Assembly: GCA_947623945.1 (NCBI GenBank)
Contig: CANQHU010000001.1
Coordinates: forward strand, 15,705-79,704
Reading direction: 5' to 3'
Source of the DNA: an uncultured Clostridia bacterium
GTDB taxonomy: Bacteria; Bacillota; Clostridia; TANB77; CAG-508
DNA length: 64,000 nucleotides
Shown here: in pieces, positions 16,980 to 36,103 of the stretch
Layout: every line of letters starts with the position of its first letter
How positions within the stretch are numbered: the first letter of the stretch is position 1
Notes under the pieces: generated by a model
The model's database searches: none
Told to the model about the DNA's origin: nothing
Seen by the model: the letters and a program-made list of their open reading frames with translations, nothing else
Translations under genes and position numbers: made by a program

Positions 16980-17348
16980 CTAACACGCTTTGCGTCTTCT
17001 GTCAATACGATACTCGGATTGCGGATACGCTATCAGTAGAAAATTTTTTCGGATTTTAATCGTAAACGCCGGTTCCCGATAGCCATACTCACCCGAAGTA
17101 AAAATTCCCGGCTTTCCAAAAAATTCAGACAACCATTCTATATAATCGGATTCCTGCCAACCCGGGCAGCGAATCGTAAAACTTAACAGCTTATCCCGCT
17201 CAAAATAAGCAGATAAGAAACAGGAGATACCAAAGCAGGAAATCTCTGCTTTTGATATCCATAAATCATACAGCGGAGAAACCGTTTTATCAAATTCTGT
17301 CGTCCTCTCTTCCAACATTCGTTTTATTGTAGCTTGTTCAAAGTCCAT
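16980..17348 (-). CDS. Hypothetical protein (122 aa), last gene of the apparatus operon
   Basis: ORF track only. Confidence 0.45.
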   Translation of the reverse strand: MDFEQATIKRMLEERTTEFDKTVSPLYDLWISKAEISCFGISCFLSAYFERDKLLSFTIRCPGWQESDYIEWLSEFFGKPGIFTSGEYGYREPAFTIKIRKNFLLIAYPQSEYRIDRRRKAC

Positions 17349-17365
17349 TTTCTCATTCGTGCTTT

Positions 17366-18319
17366 CTAAATTTTGTGTTCATCAAATAATTTGCAAAACA
17401 ATTTTACTAATAAGGTTACCCGAAATTCTGGTGATACCTTACTGTTTAAGGTGCGATTGGCCAATTCTGTCGTCAAAGTATGTGGAATTTTAAATTGCAG
17501 TTCACAATACTCCGTGACCTCTCGTAAATCTTTAAATGTCTGAGCCAATAACTGCGTCGACCGGGCGTCCTGCCCTGCGGTCTCCGGCGGAGGCGTCGGT
17601 GCCGGTGGTTCTTCGTAATTGTCATATCCCGGCTCTTCATAATCATCGTATCCCGATTCTTCATAAGCATTGTATCCCGGTTCTTCATAATCATCGTAGC
17701 CGGGTTCTTCATAAGCATCATATCCCGGTTCTTCATAATTATCATACCCTTCATAATCCGACTCGGGTGGTTCCTCAATAAATTCGTCCGGCGGCGGCCC
17801 TTCTGCAAAGGTTTCTTCTGCCGGTGGAGCTTCTGTAGGCGCTGCCTGCGAAGCAGGAGGCGTTTCCGGCGGTTTTTGCATCTTATCTGCCATCTGTTCA
17901 ATCACACCGATGGGAATATCAATATCCTTTTCCGGCGGCGTCAAATCCTTAACCAAATCCCGGAGAGTGCCTTTTCCCTGCACCGTACCCTGAAATCCGC
18001 CATCGGTAAAGACCATACGAGTAACCTGCAAATCAATTAGCCCAAAGGCCGGGTCGAACAATTTATCCAAAGGTGGAAATAAAATTAATCGGGGTGGTTC
18101 ATGAATATCAGAACACATGGCATAAATTGTATGCTTTCCAATTCCAATTAAGGCGAATCCGGATAAGGCTTGGTCCATTTCCGTATCGACCTCAAATCCA
18201 ATAATTGAGTTTTCCTCCCGTAAGTACGCCAATTCTTCTACCACCATTAACCGACGGAACAAAGGATTCTTCGCCGACGGGGCCAATTCTTTAATTTGTG
18301 TTTGAATCTCTACTCCCAT
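17366..18319 (-). CDS. Hypothetical protein (317 aa) with six tandem YEEPGYD(A/D/N) acidic repeats
   Basis: ORF track. SD aaggagattgttATG. 24-nt DNA repeats at ~17620-17760. Confidence 0.6.
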   Translation of the reverse strand: MGVEIQTQIKELAPSAKNPLFRRLMVVEELAYLREENSIIGFEVDTEMDQALSGFALIGIGKHTIYAMCSDIHEPPRLILFPPLDKLFDPAFGLIDLQVTRMVFTDGGFQGTVQGKGTLRDLVKDLTPPEKDIDIPIGVIEQMADKMQKPPETPPASQAAPTEAPPAEETFAEGPPPDEFIEEPPESDYEGYDNYEEPGYDAYEEPGYDDYEEPGYNAYEESGYDDYEEPGYDNYEEPPAPTPPPETAGQDARSTQLLAQTFKDLREVTEYCELQFKIPHTLTTELANRTLNSKVSPEFRVTLLVKLFCKLFDEHKI

Positions 18320-18329
18320 AACAATCTCC

Positions 18330-33679: not shown

Positions 33680-33753
33680 ATCCTTTACTCCTTTCTTTTA
33701 CCTCATTTGGTTCATTCTATCATTTTTTTCCTATCCGTGCAAGAGGGTATGCG

Positions 33754-35022
33754 TTATTCTTCTGCTTTGACCTTTTTTTCCTTCGTGAAATTAGAAGCGT
33801 CCAGCGCTTGATTTAAAGTCAGCTCTGCCCCTTTCAGGCTGTCATATTTGGTGATAGAGGCAGCATTTAAACTCTGAATGGCGTCTAACACGGCGTCCGC
33901 CTTCTCCTGTAAGGCGTTCAAATTCTCAATTACAATGGATTCCTCTTCACTTGGCGTCCAAATCGGAGCCCCGGTTTTTGCCGCCTCTTCATTTGCTGCG
34001 GCATTGCTGTCCAATAAATCCTGATTATATACCACCCCGTTATAGGAAATGGCTACCGGAAAGGAAAGCTCCGGATTTCGCTCTTCATCTGAAACGGATA
34101 AAATATAAGTCACATCCTTTGTTGTCGAAGTATCGGTAATTCCGTTATACAGACGATTCATTGCCACATAATCTTTTAAGGTGGAAAGCGGAGGCGCCGG
34201 CGTCACATTTAATGGCAGGCCACCGATGCGTTCCAGTTCTAACTGATAGGCGTCCAGACTTTCCTGCAACTGCGTTTCCGCTTTGGCTATTGGCTGGTTC
34301 TTGCCGGTGCCAATCAATGCGTCGGTTAAAACAGATAAGTCAATTCCATTTTTTCCATAGAGCAGTGTGGTCTTTTGTGAGTTTGACAACACAATGTCCA
34401 TTCGGGGAATGTCCGCATCATTTAAATTTTCCTTCGCTACGCTTACACGCAATCCATATAATCCGCTGCCGACCGAATCCTTTTGATTATTCGTATAAAT
34501 CAACAGGATACGCCCTTCTTCCGAAAAAGGAACTACAGCCCATTTATACTGAATATTGGTCACCGTGGTACCGGAAGAGGCGGTCAATTCAACTTTATAT
34601 CGTTCCGCTGTTGACGGAGCGTCTTTTCCGTCCACATAAAACGCAAGCAAGTGCTCCTTGTTATATTGGGATGAGGCCAGCGGCGTTAAGGAAATACTGC
34701 CCGACCGAATGACTTCCCCGCTCTCAATTAAGGCGGTCATTTCGGCAGAAGCATTTCGTTCTCGTAACTGATTTAACAATGTCTGCGTTCTTGGTACCAC
34801 GCCAAGCAATACGCCAATTATAATCAGGCACAATTCTCCAATCAGGCGGTTTCGCTGCTGGAACGGCGAAAGGAAGAAGAACAAAATTCCCTTTTCGTCC
34901 AGAAATTTTTTTGCCTTTTTGATGCGGCCGACAATGTGTTCTTCATAAAACCGGGCAAAAGTAAACGGTTCCTTTACCTCGGCAATGATATCCATTCCGG
35001 CTTCTTCCTGTTTTTTCTTCAC
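33754..35022 (-). CDS. Bitopic membrane protein (422 aa) with large C-terminal ectodomain
   Basis: ORF track. The GTG start forms a GTGA overlap with the upstream stop (an ATG at M10 is also possible). TM LIGELCLIIIGVLLGVV. Confidence 0.55.
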   Translation of the reverse strand: MKKKQEEAGMDIIAEVKEPFTFARFYEEHIVGRIKKAKKFLDEKGILFFFLSPFQQRNRLIGELCLIIIGVLLGVVPRTQTLLNQLRERNASAEMTALIESGEVIRSGSISLTPLASSQYNKEHLLAFYVDGKDAPSTAERYKVELTASSGTTVTNIQYKWAVVPFSEEGRILLIYTNNQKDSVGSGLYGLRVSVAKENLNDADIPRMDIVLSNSQKTTLLYGKNGIDLSVLTDALIGTGKNQPIAKAETQLQESLDAYQLELERIGGLPLNVTPAPPLSTLKDYVAMNRLYNGITDTSTTKDVTYILSVSDEERNPELSFPVAISYNGVVYNQDLLDSNAAANEEAAKTGAPIWTPSEEESIVIENLNALQEKADAVLDAIQSLNAASITKYDSLKGAELTLNQALDASNFTKEKKVKAEE

Positions 35023-35864
35023 GCGGTCTCACCCTCTTTCCGTTCGCACCATTCTACGCCGCCTTCAAATCCCATGATAGACAACAAAACATCAGCCGGA
35101 TTGGTTGCCGGTCTCGTAATTCTTGAAGTCTTCTTTAACGCCGTAATGCAGCGGTTCACATTCTTTGGCTTCACTAATAGCACGGCATACTGCTGAATGC
35201 TTCGCCCGGCGTCAGAGGTTCCGGCGTTATATAATAGCTGGCTTCTTCGGCGGCTCATCGCCGCAAAATCGTCTCCTTCAAACTGCTCCCGCTCCTCCAA
35301 ATAGGACTTTAAGCGGAGCATTCCGGTATCATTATCCTGCTTTTCCACAATCAGCAGGGACTCGCCGCCCTCTAAAATATTAAACAGGCTTTTTACGGCC
35401 CGGGCCTGTATGACCTTTTCCTCTTCCGAGCTCCAATATCCGATATTGGAAGTGATGTTGTAAACCAGAGCATAATTTCTGGTCCCTGCCATCCGGAACG
35501 GAACGGCGTCTAATTTTGTGTTTCCGATATCGGCTTCTGAAATGCCATGGCCCAAGGTATTGGTCGTCATCTCCTCGGTCACCATCATATGTACCGGCTT
35601 TTTGAACACGATTCCATATAGGTTGGTGAGTAAGTTCCGTCCGGTCGGCGTATGTCCCAGTACAATGTTAGCAAAGGCCACATAGGCGAGCAGGGCAGGC
35701 CAGTTCTTATGGAACAAGGCAGTCTTCCAAAGCAGAATGCCAATTCCAATCGCCAAGAGCAGGGTGCCCATCATCCGAATCGTAATCGCGCCGATAACCG
35801 TGGTGTTTCCAAAGCTGCTCTGCTTAGTCACCTGCATCAGCAATACATCATTCTCTTCATTCAT
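35019..35864 (-). CDS. Membrane protein (281 aa): two N-terminal TM helices (VirB3/PrgI-like) + soluble domain reminiscent of a VirB4 N-terminal domain
   Basis: ORF track. ATGA overlap with the HTH gene. TMs GAITIRMMGTLLLAIGIGILLW and PALLAYVAFANIVLG. Functional call is tentative. Confidence 0.5.
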   Translation of the reverse strand: MNEENDVLLMQVTKQSSFGNTTVIGAITIRMMGTLLLAIGIGILLWKTALFHKNWPALLAYVAFANIVLGHTPTGRNLLTNLYGIVFKKPVHMMVTEEMTTNTLGHGISEADIGNTKLDAVPFRMAGTRNYALVYNITSNIGYWSSEEEKVIQARAVKSLFNILEGGESLLIVEKQDNDTGMLRLKSYLEEREQFEGDDFAAMSRRRSQLLYNAGTSDAGRSIQQYAVLLVKPKNVNRCITALKKTSRITRPATNPADVLLSIMGFEGGVEWCERKEGETA

Positions 35865-36103
35865 TTCCTATCCTCCTTTGGCTCTGGCATCAAATACACC
35901 GTGTCTCCGTCTATGAATACATCGGTTTCGTCCGGAGGCTCCAGTCGGTAAAACACGGGGCCACCCTTTTTCTGTTTGAAGGGAAACAGGAAATGGTCCA
36001 AATTTCCGCCGGACAGCCAACGGCGCAAGGTTCGCTCGTGTACCCGGCTGATTTGGGCAATTTCTTTGATACGATAATATTTTTTTCCGTTAATCTCGGT
36101 CAT
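35861..36103 (-). CDS. Helix-turn-helix DNA-binding protein (80 aa), MerR/excisionase-type; first gene of the apparatus operon
   Basis: YYRIKEIAQISRVHERTLRRWLSGG is a typical HTH. Confidence 0.6.
   Translation of the reverse strand: MTEINGKKYYRIKEIAQISRVHERTLRRWLSGGNLDHFLFPFKQKKGGPVFYRLEPPDETDVFIDGDTVYLMPEPKEDRK

What the first reader, a model, noticed from the sequence alone, without database searches (positions are those of the whole stretch)
16980..36103. Type-IV-secretion-like envelope apparatus with no canonical T4SS ATPase, coupling protein or relaxase in 19 kb
The gene content seen here is as follows. HTH regulator. A 2-TM VirB3-like protein (281 aa). Bitopic proteins of 422, 265, 235 and 177 aa, three with T/E-rich linkers. 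Coiled-coil and acidic-repeat proteins. A VirB4-position protein of 690 aa. A VirB6-like polytopic protein of 1229 aa. A small polytopic protein of 157 aa. A membrane-anchored lysozyme+NlpC/P60 hydrolase. This matches the parts list of Gram-positive conjugative T4SSs (Tn916/pCW3/pCF10-type: VirB1, VirB3, VirB4, VirB6, VirB8 analogues). However, the only intact P-loop NTPase in the two operons is a Clp/Hsp100-type double AAA+ protein. No VirD4/FtsK-like coupling protein, VirB11 or relaxase is present between 1 and 64000. Together with the adjacent tagged-protein array, this suggests a protein-translocating derivative of a conjugation machine rather than a DNA-transfer system.
Basis: partly seen in the sequence, partly recalled or inferred. 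Interest (0 to 1): 0.8.

Follow-up and report, generated by a model that had tools for sequence, protein, structure and literature searches.

The report
Conjugation machine with dead VirB4 ATPase
This is a real Gram-positive type IV secretion (conjugation) gene cluster on a ~182 kb gut megaplasmid. Its VirB4 core protein keeps the VirB4 fold but has lost the ATP-hydrolysis motifs. It always travels with a Clp-like AAA+ ATPase and a giant coupling protein that lies just outside the window.

Summary
The gene list is confirmed: two minus-strand operons (36.3-25.5 kb and 24.25-16.85 kb).

- **VirB4 homologue.** The 690-aa protein matches no sequence profile. Its AlphaFold model matches R388 TrwK/VirB4 over its full length (E 2.6e-11). 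The Walker A lysine and the Walker B Asp-Glu are missing, the latter family-wide.
- **Coupling protein.** The claim of none holds only inside the window. A 1255-aa VirD4-type protein with intact motifs lies 3 kb beyond the left edge, on the same strand.
- **Conserved module.** Pseudo-VirB4, a Clp/Hsp100-like double AAA+, a long coupling protein and a PrgK-type lysozyme recur in Gordonia pGKT2 and Staphylococcus pAYP1020, both with a MobL relaxase. An Enterococcus faecium plasmid carries all but the coupling protein. The AAA+ lies within 10 kb in 25 of 37 gut-metagenome loci.
- **Prior work.** Relatives match the "Hodor" conjugative megaplasmids of a 2026 preprint. It names VirB4, VirB6 and VirD4 but not the motif loss or the AAA+.
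- **Open points.** No relaxase was found in the 82 kb I could read.
- **Tags.** Ten downstream proteins share a C-terminal LSDxDLAxL-like tag, so protein co-transfer remains plausible.

Verdict: a conjugative T4SS of a distinct, under-recognised class, not a proven protein-only secretion system.

The parts
36291..36320 (-). Promoter-like site upstream of operon 1 (TTGACA-18-TACAAT with TG)
   Evidence: consensus scan only
35861..36103 (-). 80-aa HTH protein (HTH_17/MerR-like), first gene of operon 1
   Evidence: A homologous HTH gene is at the same position in related loci
35019..35864 (-). 281-aa core protein. Two N-terminal TM helices (VirB3-like anchor) plus a soluble alpha/beta domain that weakly resembles part of VirB4
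   Evidence: AF2 pLDDT 71, helices 29-47 and 55-69. The top 8 Foldseek hits are TrwK/VirB4, but only at E 3e-3 to 5.5e-2 over ~140 columns. No profile similarity to the 690-aa family. Present in 33/37 loci at 41-75% identity. A 290-aa counterpart lies directly upstream of the pseudo-VirB4 in pAYP1020
33754..35022 (-). 422-aa bitopic membrane protein, conserved core component of unknown role
   Evidence: one TM; present in 33/37 loci; no family hit
32879..33679 (-). 266-aa acidic (E/P-rich repeat) protein
   Evidence: 17/37 loci
32300..32860 (-). 186-aa coiled-coil protein
30171..32243 (-). 690-aa VirB4-fold protein with degenerate nucleotide-binding motifs (pseudo-VirB4)
   Evidence: AF2 pLDDT 78. 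Foldseek top 13 hits are TrwK/VirB4 of R388, E 2.6e-11 to 7.5e-8, 644-710 aligned columns. No Pfam, PHROG, NCBIfam or PDB sequence hit. P-loop site is G320-N-D-T-I-N-E326-T327 and the Walker B site is D586-AIFI-H591-G592
26471..30160 (-). 1229-aa polytopic protein with a long S/T/E-rich disordered C-terminus, at the VirB6 position
   Evidence: About 6 TM segments. It follows the VirB4-like gene in 31/37 loci, pGKT2 (1272 aa) and pAYP1020 (1803 aa). A VirB6 assignment by structure is reported for Hodor relatives (PMC12934698); not tested here
25900..26373 (-). 157-aa small polytopic core protein (possible VirB2/VirB3-type subunit; untested)
   Evidence: 3 TM; 31/37 loci; pGKT2 143-aa and pAYP1020 homologues
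25655..25870 (-). 71-aa small ORF that ends operon 1
25518..25550 (-). Strong intrinsic-terminator-like hairpin (14 bp stem, T8) at the end of operon 1
24984..25370 (-). Four ~57-nt repeats spaced 103-114 nt, each a hairpin plus T-run followed by TTGACA (terminator/promoter units) between the two operons
   Evidence: no Rfam family
22184..24283 (-). Clp/Hsp100-like double AAA+ ATPase (699-aa ORF; the likely start at ATG 24202 gives 672 aa). No N-domain or M-domain
   Evidence: AAA_2 5.6e-20. ClpA 1.8e-61, ClpB and ClpV hits all far below curated cut-offs. Matches PDB ClpB, ClpC and ClpA at 6e-39 and weaker. Walker A at 86 and 374 and Walker B at 153 and 427. Homologues in pGKT2 (31% identity, 4e-82), pAYP1020 (31%, 2e-65) and an E. 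faecium plasmid (26%, 5e-35), and in 25/37 metagenome loci
20420..22177 (-). 585-aa membrane-anchored cell-wall hydrolase (Phage_lysozyme2 plus a probable papain-like C-terminal domain); VirB1/PrgK analogue
   Evidence: 31% identity over 477 aa to the pGKT2 'phage tail tip lysozyme'. PrgK of pCF10 carries the same annotation. CHAP is recorded for hydrolases of related loci
19609..20436 (-). 275-aa (265 from the second Met) bitopic protein with a T/E-rich linker
18883..19590 (-). 235-aa bitopic protein with a T/E-rich linker; VirB8-position candidate
   Evidence: Weak homologue (26% identity, 8e-6) at the same position after the hydrolase in pGKT2. Fold not tested
18330..18926 (-). 198-aa (177-aa) bitopic coiled-coil protein
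17366..18319 (-). 317-aa protein with acidic YEEPGYD repeats
   Evidence: homologues in 6 loci
16980..17348 (-). 122-aa protein, last gene of operon 2
16852..16879 (-). Terminator-like hairpin that ends operon 2
2256..15294 (-). Array of genes whose products share a C-terminal LSDxDLAxL-like tag. It includes BspA LRR proteins, a DHH phosphoesterase, an RnlB-like antitoxin, a HIRAN protein and paralogous unknowns. It lies between the T4SS operons and the coupling-protein gene

Best explanation
The two operons encode the membrane channel of a conjugative type IV secretion system of the Gram-positive ('minimised') kind. The system sits on a ~182 kb megaplasmid of gut Firmicutes related to the 'Hodor' megaplasmids.

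Shown here:
- The 690-aa protein is a VirB4 homologue by fold.
- It lacks the Walker A lysine and the Walker B Asp-Glu.
- A VirD4-type coupling protein with intact motifs lies 3 kb outside the window on the same strand.
- The cluster carries a PrgK-type hydrolase and a Clp/Hsp100-like double AAA+ with intact motifs.
- The set pseudo-VirB4 + AAA+ + long coupling protein + hydrolase is conserved in Firmicutes and Actinobacteria plasmids, two of which add a MobL relaxase.

Inferred:
- The VirB4-like protein acts as a non-hydrolysing scaffold at the channel base, together with the 281-aa anchor and the VirB6-like protein.
- ATP energy comes from the coupling protein and, probably, the AAA+.
- The substrate is plasmid DNA processed by a relaxase encoded elsewhere on the element.
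- Probably also a set of C-terminally tagged proteins encoded between the channel genes and the coupling-protein gene are delivered to the recipient.
For: - **VirB4 fold.** The top 13 Foldseek hits are TrwK/VirB4 over the full length. A remote family member, P0225, keeps GGERSGKS and WWIQDEAD and aligns at 94% hhalign probability. Weak TraC_F_IV hits occur in remote members.
- **Motif loss.**
- **Coupling protein.** T4SS-DNA_transf scores 58 bits (cut-off 20.1) and TraG-D_C 42.7 bits (cut-off 22). It also hits the CD1115 family, as PcfC of pCF10 does. Walker A is AITRGGKG and Walker B is LMLEEF.
- **Hydrolase.** Same Phage_lysozyme2 type as PrgK.
- **Conserved module.** pGKT2, pAYP1020, an E. 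faecium plasmid (no coupling-protein hit there) and 37 metagenome loci.
- **Relaxase nearby in relatives.** MobL lies within the module in pGKT2 and pAYP1020.
- **No other VirB4.** None is annotated on the complete pGKT2 or pAYP1020.
- **Transfer evidence.** pGKT2 transfers between actinomycetes (Jung et al. 2011, as cited in PMC5640721).
- **Hodor link.** Locus L006 has a trigger factor and SecY/SecE next to the cluster, as described for conjugative Hodor megaplasmids whose VirB4, VirB6 and VirD4 were named.
- **Context.** Sortase and large adhesin genes flank the region, as in other Gram-positive conjugative plasmids.
Against: - No relaxase or oriT was found in the 82 kb I could read (window plus ~9 kb on each side), nor near the coupling protein of an IMG/VR relative.
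- About 100 kb of the contig is unread and could hold a canonical VirB4.
- No experiment links this cluster to transfer. pGKT2 transfer could depend on helper replicons.
- In E. faecium pELF2 a different FtsK-type tra operon is essential for transfer. I did not establish whether the E. faecium plasmids that carry this cluster are pELF-type.
- Loss of the motifs does not prove loss of all nucleotide binding. 23 of 40 close homologues keep Lys-Thr at the P-loop site.
- The AAA+ lacks the canonical pore-loop tyrosines in the ClpB alignment, which fits poorly with a threading motor.
- The AAA+ is absent within 10 kb in 12 of 37 loci.
Confidence: 0.6

Rival explanations
1. One reading: a T4SS derivative dedicated to protein translocation. 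The Clp-like AAA+ unfolds C-terminally tagged proteins (BspA LRR proteins and others), which are exported to other cells or to the surface. The machine does not transfer DNA.
For: - Ten window ORFs plus three beyond the left edge carry a shared C-terminal tag. The background rate is 1% per 45-aa segment.
- The tagged proteins lack signal peptides or TM segments.
- They sit between the channel operons and the coupling-protein gene.
- No relaxase was found in 82 kb.
- The VirB4 motifs are lost and an unfoldase-type AAA+ is co-conserved.
Against: - A VirD4-type coupling protein is present and co-conserved.
- The homologous modules in pGKT2 and pAYP1020 include a MobL relaxase.
- Relatives are plasmids described as conjugative.
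- The tag was not found near the cluster in relatives or anywhere in pGKT2, so it is not a conserved feature of the system.
- The tagged set includes cytoplasmic-type enzymes (a DHH phosphoesterase, an RnlB-like antitoxin, a HIRAN protein). These fit delivery into a recipient bacterium during mating better than a secretion-only role.
Confidence: 0.15
2. An ordinary conjugative T4SS in which the ATPase question is moot. Either the VirB4-like protein still hydrolyses ATP through non-canonical residues, or a canonical VirB4 elsewhere on the replicon does the work. The Clp-like AAA+ would be a plasmid accessory gene (chaperone, replication or anti-defence helper) unrelated to secretion.
For: - Many close homologues keep G-N-D-T-x-N-K-T, and one (P0128) has a canonical GNDSEGKT.
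- The broader family keeps an acidic residue two positions after the invariant His-Gly (IHGAD/E).
- ConE of ICEBs1 is reported inactive in vitro although its motifs are intact (PMC12857230).
- About 100 kb of the contig is unread.
- The AAA+ changes position and strand between lineages, and lies ~25 kb from the VirB4-like gene in pGKT2.
Against: - The window protein has Glu at the Walker A lysine position.
- The whole family has His-Gly where Asp-Glu should be.
- No other VirB4 is annotated on the two complete replicons, and MOB-suite finds no mating-pair-formation marker there.
- The AAA+ stays with the module across four lineages at only 26-31% identity. That is hard to explain for unrelated cargo.
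Confidence: 0.2
3. A decaying, non-functional remnant of a conjugation system.
For: Loss of the catalytic motifs in the signature ATPase. PLSDB types the carrier plasmids mostly as non-mobilizable.
Against: - All ORFs are intact and long.
- The replaced motif residues are themselves invariant: G320, N321, T327, D586, H591 and G592 in 40/40 sequences.
- Gene order and content are kept in dozens of independent contigs and across phyla.
Confidence: 0.03

Closest known systems
Enterococcus faecalis pCF10 Prg/Pcf system (Gram-positive minimised conjugative T4SS)
   Same: Same parts logic and order: small TM protein, VirB4-position protein, polytopic VirB6-like protein, a membrane-anchored Phage_lysozyme2-type hydrolase (PrgK), small bitopic VirB8-position proteins, and a CD1115-family VirD4-like coupling protein. 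Adhesin and sortase-substrate genes lie nearby.
   Different: PrgJ is a Walker-intact ATPase recognised by NCBIfam (CD1110 family). The 690-aa protein has no profile similarity to it (hhalign probability 0.6%) and lacks the motifs. pCF10 has no Clp-like AAA+ annotated. Here the coupling protein is about twice as long (1255 aa) and the VirB6-like protein about five times as long.
T4SS of 'Hodor' gut megaplasmids (preprint PMC12934698, Feb 2026)
   Same: Probably the same T4SS family. Locus L006 (JAAGKN010000816, 318 kb) has the trigger factor and SecY/SecE neighbourhood described for Hodors. Its VirB4-like protein is 63% identical to the window's. The preprint names VirB4, VirB6 (by structure only) and VirD4, and finds no canonical relaxase.
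   Different: The window element is ~182 kb, not >300 kb. The preprint text contains no mention of Walker motifs, AAA+ or Clp, of homologues in Actinobacteria, Staphylococcus or Enterococcus, or of a C-terminal tag. The Hodor MOBH-like HD nuclease plus helicase was not identified in the sequence I could read.
TrwK/VirB4 of plasmid R388 (solved structures 7o42, 7o43, 8rtd)
   Same: Best structural match over both domains, E 2.6e-11, probability 1.0.
   Different: 8-11% sequence identity and TM-score only ~0.4. The Walker A lysine and Walker B Asp-Glu are absent in the window protein.
Unannotated clusters on Gordonia pGKT2 and Staphylococcus capitis pAYP1020
   Same: Homologues of the pseudo-VirB4, the VirB3-like anchor, the small polytopic protein, the hydrolase, the Clp-like AAA+ and the long coupling protein.
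   Different: They carry a MobL (MOB_L) relaxase next to the AAA+ gene. Gene order differs, and no tag array was detected in pGKT2. PLSDB types them mobilizable and non-mobilizable respectively.
ClpV (TssH) of type VI secretion, and Clp/Hsp100 unfoldases generally
   Same: A double-ring Clp/Hsp100-type AAA+ dedicated to a secretion machine. NCBIfam ClpV1 hit 5e-42 and ClpA 1.8e-61.
   Different: Scores are far below every equivalog cut-off. There is no N-domain or M-domain, and the canonical pore-loop tyrosines are not aligned. An association with a T4SS was not found in the papers I searched.

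Membership tests
Conjugative type IV secretion system (Gram-positive minimised type) | VirB4-family protein encoded in the cluster | tested here: met
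   Fold match to TrwK/VirB4 over the full length, E 2.6e-11. Met by structure only, not by sequence profile.
Conjugative type IV secretion system (Gram-positive minimised type) | VirD4-type coupling protein | tested here: met
   1255-aa protein 3 kb outside the window on the same strand. PF02534 scores 58 bits and PF12696 42.7 bits, both above the gathering scores. Walker A and B are intact.
Conjugative type IV secretion system (Gram-positive minimised type) | Relaxase and oriT on the same element | tested here: not met
   None found by Pfam or NCBIfam in the window plus ~9 kb on each side. About 100 kb of the contig could not be read. MobL is present in the homologous modules of pGKT2 and pAYP1020.
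Conjugative type IV secretion system (Gram-positive minimised type) | Cell-wall hydrolase (VirB1/PrgK analogue) | tested here: met
   Phage_lysozyme2 1.6e-22 with an N-terminal TM. Same annotation as PrgK.
Conjugative type IV secretion system (Gram-positive minimised type) | VirB6-like polytopic channel protein | tested here: inconclusive
   Position, about 6 TM segments and conservation only. The structural assignment is reported for relatives in PMC12934698; not modelled here.
Conjugative type IV secretion system (Gram-positive minimised type) | VirB8-like (NTF2-fold) bitopic protein | not tested
   The 235- and 275-aa bitopic proteins are candidates by position.
VirB4/TrbE/CagE ATPase family (as defined by sequence models) | Match to Pfam or NCBIfam VirB4 models | tested here: not met
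   No hit for the 690-aa protein. The profile against PDB sequences gave 0 hits. hhalign against PrgJ gave probability 0.6%. Only sub-threshold TraC_F_IV hits appear in two remote members.
VirB4/TrbE/CagE ATPase family (as defined by sequence models) | Walker A GxxGxGK[ST] and Walker B hhhhDE | tested here: not met
   The window protein has GNDTINET and AIFIHG. His591-Gly592 is invariant in 40/40 sequences. The broader family has no GK[ST] at the site.
Clp/Hsp100 class I AAA+ (ClpA/ClpB/ClpC/ClpV) | Two AAA+ modules with Walker A and B | tested here: met
   Walker A AEPGTGKT at 86 and GTTGTGKT at 374; Walker B VLFIDE at 153 and YILIDE at 427. Alignments to ClpB and ClpA cover both modules.
Clp/Hsp100 class I AAA+ (ClpA/ClpB/ClpC/ClpV) | Score above an equivalog cut-off; N-domain; M-domain or ClpP loop; pore-loop tyrosines | tested here: not met
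   Best score is 208 bits against a ClpA cut-off of 993. The alignment starts at NBD1, with no N-domain. The NBD1 KYRG aligns to LLTG, and the NBD2 GYVG segment falls in an alignment gap. This rests on a single pairwise alignment, so the pore-loop statement is provisional.
Hodor megaplasmids (PMC12934698) | >=90% nucleotide similarity over >=10 kb to a curated Hodor; Rep_3, ParA and ParB markers; size >300 kb | not testable with these tools
The contig is 181.8 kb, and the replication and partition region was not readable. Only the T4SS proteins could be compared with a locus that fits the Hodor description.

The most novel reading that the evidence does not exclude
In this widespread Gram-positive T4SS class the universal VirB4 motor has become an inert scaffold. 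A dedicated Clp/Hsp100-like AAA+ has taken over as the second energising ATPase beside VirD4. In this element the AAA+ (or the giant coupling protein) also reads a C-terminal LSDxDLAxL tag. It would feed a battery of proteins (anti-defence enzymes, LRR proteins) through the channel into recipient cells together with the DNA.
Probability: 0.2. Interest if true: 0.9.

Novelty: new variant of a known kind. Interest (0 to 1): 0.7.

Why it matters
- **A challenge to the T4SS marker.** VirB4 is treated as the one universal, catalytically active signature of type IV secretion, and it is the marker used to find and classify conjugative elements. A December 2025 review states that Gram-positive VirB4 homologues keep the Walker A and B motifs (PMC12857230). 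A conserved T4SS class whose VirB4 has lost them, and which always carries a Clp-like AAA+, would change how such machines are thought to be powered.
- **Hidden conjugative plasmids.** It would also explain why many large Gram-positive plasmids are typed 'non-mobilizable'. Examples are 102 Enterococcus records, Staphylococcus and Lactococcus plasmids, Gordonia and Rhodococcus catabolic plasmids, and gut megaplasmids. Of the 183 PLSDB records hit, 107 were typed non-mobilizable, 65 mobilizable and only 11 conjugative. That matters for predicting the spread of resistance and catabolic genes.
- **A candidate translocation signal.** The tag array offers a directly testable signal for protein transfer during Gram-positive conjugation.

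Tried and rejected
- **Sequence-profile annotation** of the 690-, 1229-, 281-, 422- and 157-aa proteins with Pfam, PHROGs and NCBIfam found nothing.
- **Sequence links to VirB4** failed. The family profile against PDB sequences gave 0 hits, and hhalign against PrgJ gave no similarity.
- **The second homologue search**, with an alignment that included the Gordonia protein, returned essentially the same set and was wasted.
- **The genome-contig scan** found no relatives, because the back-translated patterns were too specific.
- **A phage origin** is rejected. tblastn against phage records found no match, and the only phage-like domain is the lysozyme also found in PrgK.
- **The relaxase hunt** found nothing:
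  - NCBIfam and Pfam on all larger ORFs between the operons and the coupling protein.
  - HxH and HD motif inspection.
  - The neighbourhood of a 59%-identical coupling protein in IMG/VR.
- **The 579-, 682-, 207- and 236-aa proteins** turned out to be paralogues of one unknown family, not relaxases.
- **The tag in relatives.** It was at background frequency within 10 kb of the VirB4-like gene and absent from pGKT2. The equivalent downstream regions of close relatives could not be fetched.
- **The idea that the 281-aa protein is a paralogue of the 690-aa N-terminal domain** has no profile support and only weak fold support.
- **The pELF2 tra operon** (PMC13492992) looked like prior experimental work on this system. 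It is a different FtsK-type three-gene system.
- **pMMCAT** (PMC12056005) is a Bacteroidales plasmid and is unrelated.
- **Rfam** found no RNA family in the window.

Full report
**Observation.**
- Consensus scans place a promoter-like site at 36320-36291 and a strong terminator at 25550-25518. A second promoter-like site lies at 24252-24224 and a terminator at 16879-16852. The 'two operons' description therefore holds.
- Pfam, PHROGs and NCBIfam recognise only three of these proteins. They are the 80-aa HTH protein, the Phage_lysozyme2 domain of the 585-aa membrane-anchored hydrolase, and the 699-aa double AAA+.
- The AAA+ resembles ClpA, ClpB and ClpV, but its best score is 208 bits against a ClpA cut-off of 993.
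- The AAA+ is the only protein in the two operons with Walker A motifs. The 690-aa protein has none.
- These are real genes. The 690-aa and 281-aa proteins each have more than 140 homologues in the 5.8-billion-protein collection, none with a Pfam domain, on contigs of up to 387 kb.
- An exhaustive HMMER search finds 103 representative clusters for the 690-aa family.

**What the 690-aa protein is.**
- An AlphaFold2 model built on 40 homologues has pLDDT 78.
- Its 13 best PDB matches are TrwK/VirB4 of plasmid R388, at E 2.6e-11 to 7.5e-8, probability 1.0 and 644-710 aligned columns. DndH, TdpA, HerA and the VirD4 proteins TrwB and Cagbeta follow.
- It is therefore a full-length VirB4 homologue by fold, although no sequence method links it to VirB4.
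- Two remote members give sub-threshold TraC_F_IV hits.
- A remote relative, P0225, still has GGERSGKS and WWIQDEAD. It aligns to the family profile with 94% hhalign probability. This shows where the motifs should be.
- At the P-loop position the close family has G320-N-D-T-x-N-x-T327. Gly, Asn and Thr are invariant. Residue 326 is Lys in 23 of 40 sequences but Glu in the window protein.
- At the Walker B position every member has hydrophobic residues followed by His591-Gly592 instead of Asp-Glu.
- In the wider family, including the actinobacterial members, the P-loop region is not conserved at all and the signature is IHGA[D/E].
- I read this as a VirB4 that has lost P-loop ATPase chemistry. 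Residual nucleotide binding in some members cannot be excluded.

**The missing partners.**
- The protein at the left edge of the window led to the parent contig, ENA ERZ27249377 NODE_8 of 181,759 bp. Contigs of almost the same length occur in other samples, which suggests a complete ~182 kb element.
- Three kilobases beyond window position 1, on the same strand, lies a 1255-aa protein. It scores above the gathering thresholds for T4SS-DNA_transf (58 bits) and TraG-D_C (42.7 bits). It also has a sub-threshold match to the CD1115 VirD4-like family, to which PcfC of pCF10 belongs.
- This protein has two N-terminal TM segments, a VirD4-type Walker A (AITRGGKG) and an acidic Walker B (LMLEEF).
- To the right of the window lie a fused GyrB/GyrA topoisomerase, another AAA protein, a sortase and a SpaA-type adhesin.
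- No relaxase was found in the window or in the two flanks.

**Related systems.**
- tblastn of the 690-aa protein against PLSDB hit only Gordonia sp. KTR9 pGKT2 and a Rhodococcus fascians plasmid.
- pGKT2 carries, in similar order:
  - a 2-TM 296-aa protein and an HTH protein;
  - an 835-aa homologue that also lacks a Walker A;
  - a 1272-aa polytopic protein and a 143-aa 2-TM protein;
  - a Phage_lysozyme2 hydrolase (31% identity over 477 aa);
  - a homologue of the 235-aa protein;
  - a MobL relaxase;
  - a homologue of the Clp-like AAA+ (31% over 615 aa, 4e-82);
  - a 1412-aa coupling protein (33% over 942 aa, 9e-157).
- The complete pGKT2 annotation shows no other VirB4-like ATPase, and MOB-suite found no mating-pair-formation marker. 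Even so, pGKT2 is reported to transfer to Gordonia, Rhodococcus and Nocardia (Jung et al. 2011, as cited in PMC5640721).
- The pGKT2 protein in turn hits 183 plasmids, mostly typed non-mobilizable: Enterococcus 102, Lactiplantibacillus 49 (partial matches to annotated conjugation ATPases), Staphylococcus 9 and Lactococcus 7.
- S. capitis pAYP1020 has coupling protein, 290-aa anchor, 704-aa pseudo-VirB4, 1803-aa polytopic protein and lysozyme. It also has MobL followed by an AAA+ that is 31% identical to the window's (2e-65).
- An E. faecium plasmid has the AAA+ (5e-35), the pseudo-VirB4 and the lysozyme, but no coupling-protein hit in the 41 kb fetched.
- In 37 full-length gut-metagenome loci, the counts within 10 kb of the VirB4-like gene are:
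  - 281-aa and 422-aa proteins: 33 loci each;
  - VirB6-like and 157-aa proteins: 31 loci each;
  - Clp-like AAA+: 25 loci, in two different arrangements.

**Literature.**
- A February 2026 preprint describes 'Hodor' conjugative megaplasmids of gut Bacillota. It reports VirB4, VirD4, a VirB6 found only by structure, no canonical relaxase (a MOBH-like HD nuclease plus helicase instead), sortases, SecY/SecE and a trigger factor (PMC12934698).
- Locus L006 (JAAGKN010000816, 318 kb) has exactly that neighbourhood around a 63%-identical VirB4-like gene. The window element is most likely a smaller relative of Hodors.
- The preprint text never mentions Walker motifs, AAA+ or Clp.
- A December 2025 review states that Gram-positive VirB4 homologues retain the Walker A and B motifs (PMC12857230).
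- I found no paper on a P-loop-less VirB4.
- The pELF2 tra operon is a different FtsK-type system.

**Other parts.**
- The 281-aa protein models as two TM helices plus an alpha/beta domain. The best Foldseek hits of that domain are again TrwK, but weak (E 3e-3) and without profile support. 'VirB3-like anchor' is reasonable but tentative.
- In its alignment to ClpB, the AAA+ lacks an N-domain and an M-domain, and it lacks the pore-loop tyrosines. Its mode of action is open.

**The tag.**
- Outside the finding's coordinates but bearing on it, ten minus-strand ORFs between 2256 and 15294 carry an LSDxDLAxL-like motif 15-38 residues from the C-terminus. Three more lie beyond the left edge.
- The motif occurs in about 1% of control segments. 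Two copies that were not used for training score above every control.
- The carriers are BspA LRR proteins without signal peptides, a DHH phosphoesterase, an RnlB-like antitoxin, a HIRAN protein and paralogous unknowns.
- This looks like a translocation signal. Its carriers look like proteins useful in a newly entered recipient cell. Both points are inference.
- I could not find the tag in relatives.

**Conclusion.**
This is a T4SS with a catalytically degenerate VirB4 and a co-conserved Clp-like AAA+.
- The coupling protein sits just outside the window, and the homologous modules elsewhere carry a relaxase. A conjugative DNA-transfer system, perhaps with protein co-transfer, is therefore more likely than a protein-only machine.

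Noticed in passing
window 2256-15294 (- strand) and L002:11263-15026: Thirteen diverse proteins share an acidic C-terminal motif, consensus L-S-[DE]-x-D-[LI]-A-[DE]-L, that begins 15-38 residues from the end. They include BspA LRR proteins, a DHH phosphoesterase, an RnlB-like antitoxin, a HIRAN protein, an 84-aa ORF and paralogous unknowns. Control segments show the motif at about 1%. It is a candidate secretion or translocation tag.
   Followed up: partly
window 24984-25370: Four ~57-nt direct repeats spaced 103-114 nt lie between the two operons. Each is a GC-rich hairpin plus a T-run followed directly by TTGACA, that is, stacked terminator/promoter units. They might produce short RNAs. There is no Rfam match.
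   Followed up: partly
window 24301-24624 and 24626-24943 (+ strand): Two adjacent small genes (107 and 105 aa), each with a Shine-Dalgarno sequence, encode an N-terminal TM helix plus a C-terminal zinc ribbon (CxxC...CxxC). They are antisense to the flanking operons. Function unknown.
   Followed up: no
window 9331-11070, 11080-11703, 11780-13828; L002:14316-15026: Four paralogous proteins of unknown function (579, 207, 682 and 236 aa) share an N-terminal MGPKELxRLxYxSxLIDYxTL... module. Most carry the C-terminal tag. There is no family hit.
   Followed up: partly
L002:18946-21265 and the C-terminus of the coupling protein (L002:15152-18919): The 500-aa protein after the coupling-protein gene consists of about four copies of a ~110-aa repeat (FDGAKExHRKxLAxxL...). 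The same repeat also appears at the C-terminus of the coupling protein and in the next gene.
   Followed up: no
window 22184-24283: In the alignment to ClpB, the Clp-like AAA+ has Leu-Leu-Thr-Gly where NBD1 has the pore-loop KYRG. It also has a gap where NBD2 has GYVG. It may not thread polypeptides in the classical way.
   Followed up: partly
L006 (JAAGKN010000816.1) 16112-17596: Plasmid-borne SecY and SecE genes lie directly after the VirB6-like gene, and a trigger-factor-like gene lies upstream of the cluster. This matches the Hodor megaplasmid description.
   Followed up: partly
L084 (E. faecium NZ_LT598665.1) and 101 other Enterococcus plasmid records: Clinical E. faecium plasmids of 77-160 kb, some recorded as linear, carry the pseudo-VirB4, the Clp-like AAA+ and the lysozyme. 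Most are typed non-mobilizable. Whether they are pELF-type, and how this cluster relates to the essential traC/D/G operon of pELF2, is unknown.
   Followed up: partly
window 37545-39152 (+), 41396-47047 (+), 59559-62212 (+); L004: A DUF5906 primase-helicase gene lies next to and divergent from the T4SS operon; the adjacency is conserved in 22/37 loci, though in many the gene lies on the same strand. Also present are a 1883-aa Listeria-Bacteroides-repeat surface protein, an SNF2 helicase, a CAAX protease (also on pAYP1020), a fused GyrB/GyrA topoisomerase, a sortase and a SpaA adhesin.
   Followed up: partly
L008/L009 8242-9804: In one group of relatives a PIF1-family helicase sits between the AAA+ gene and the VirB4-like gene. 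It may be the helicase partner of the MOBH-like relaxase reported for Hodors.
   Followed up: no
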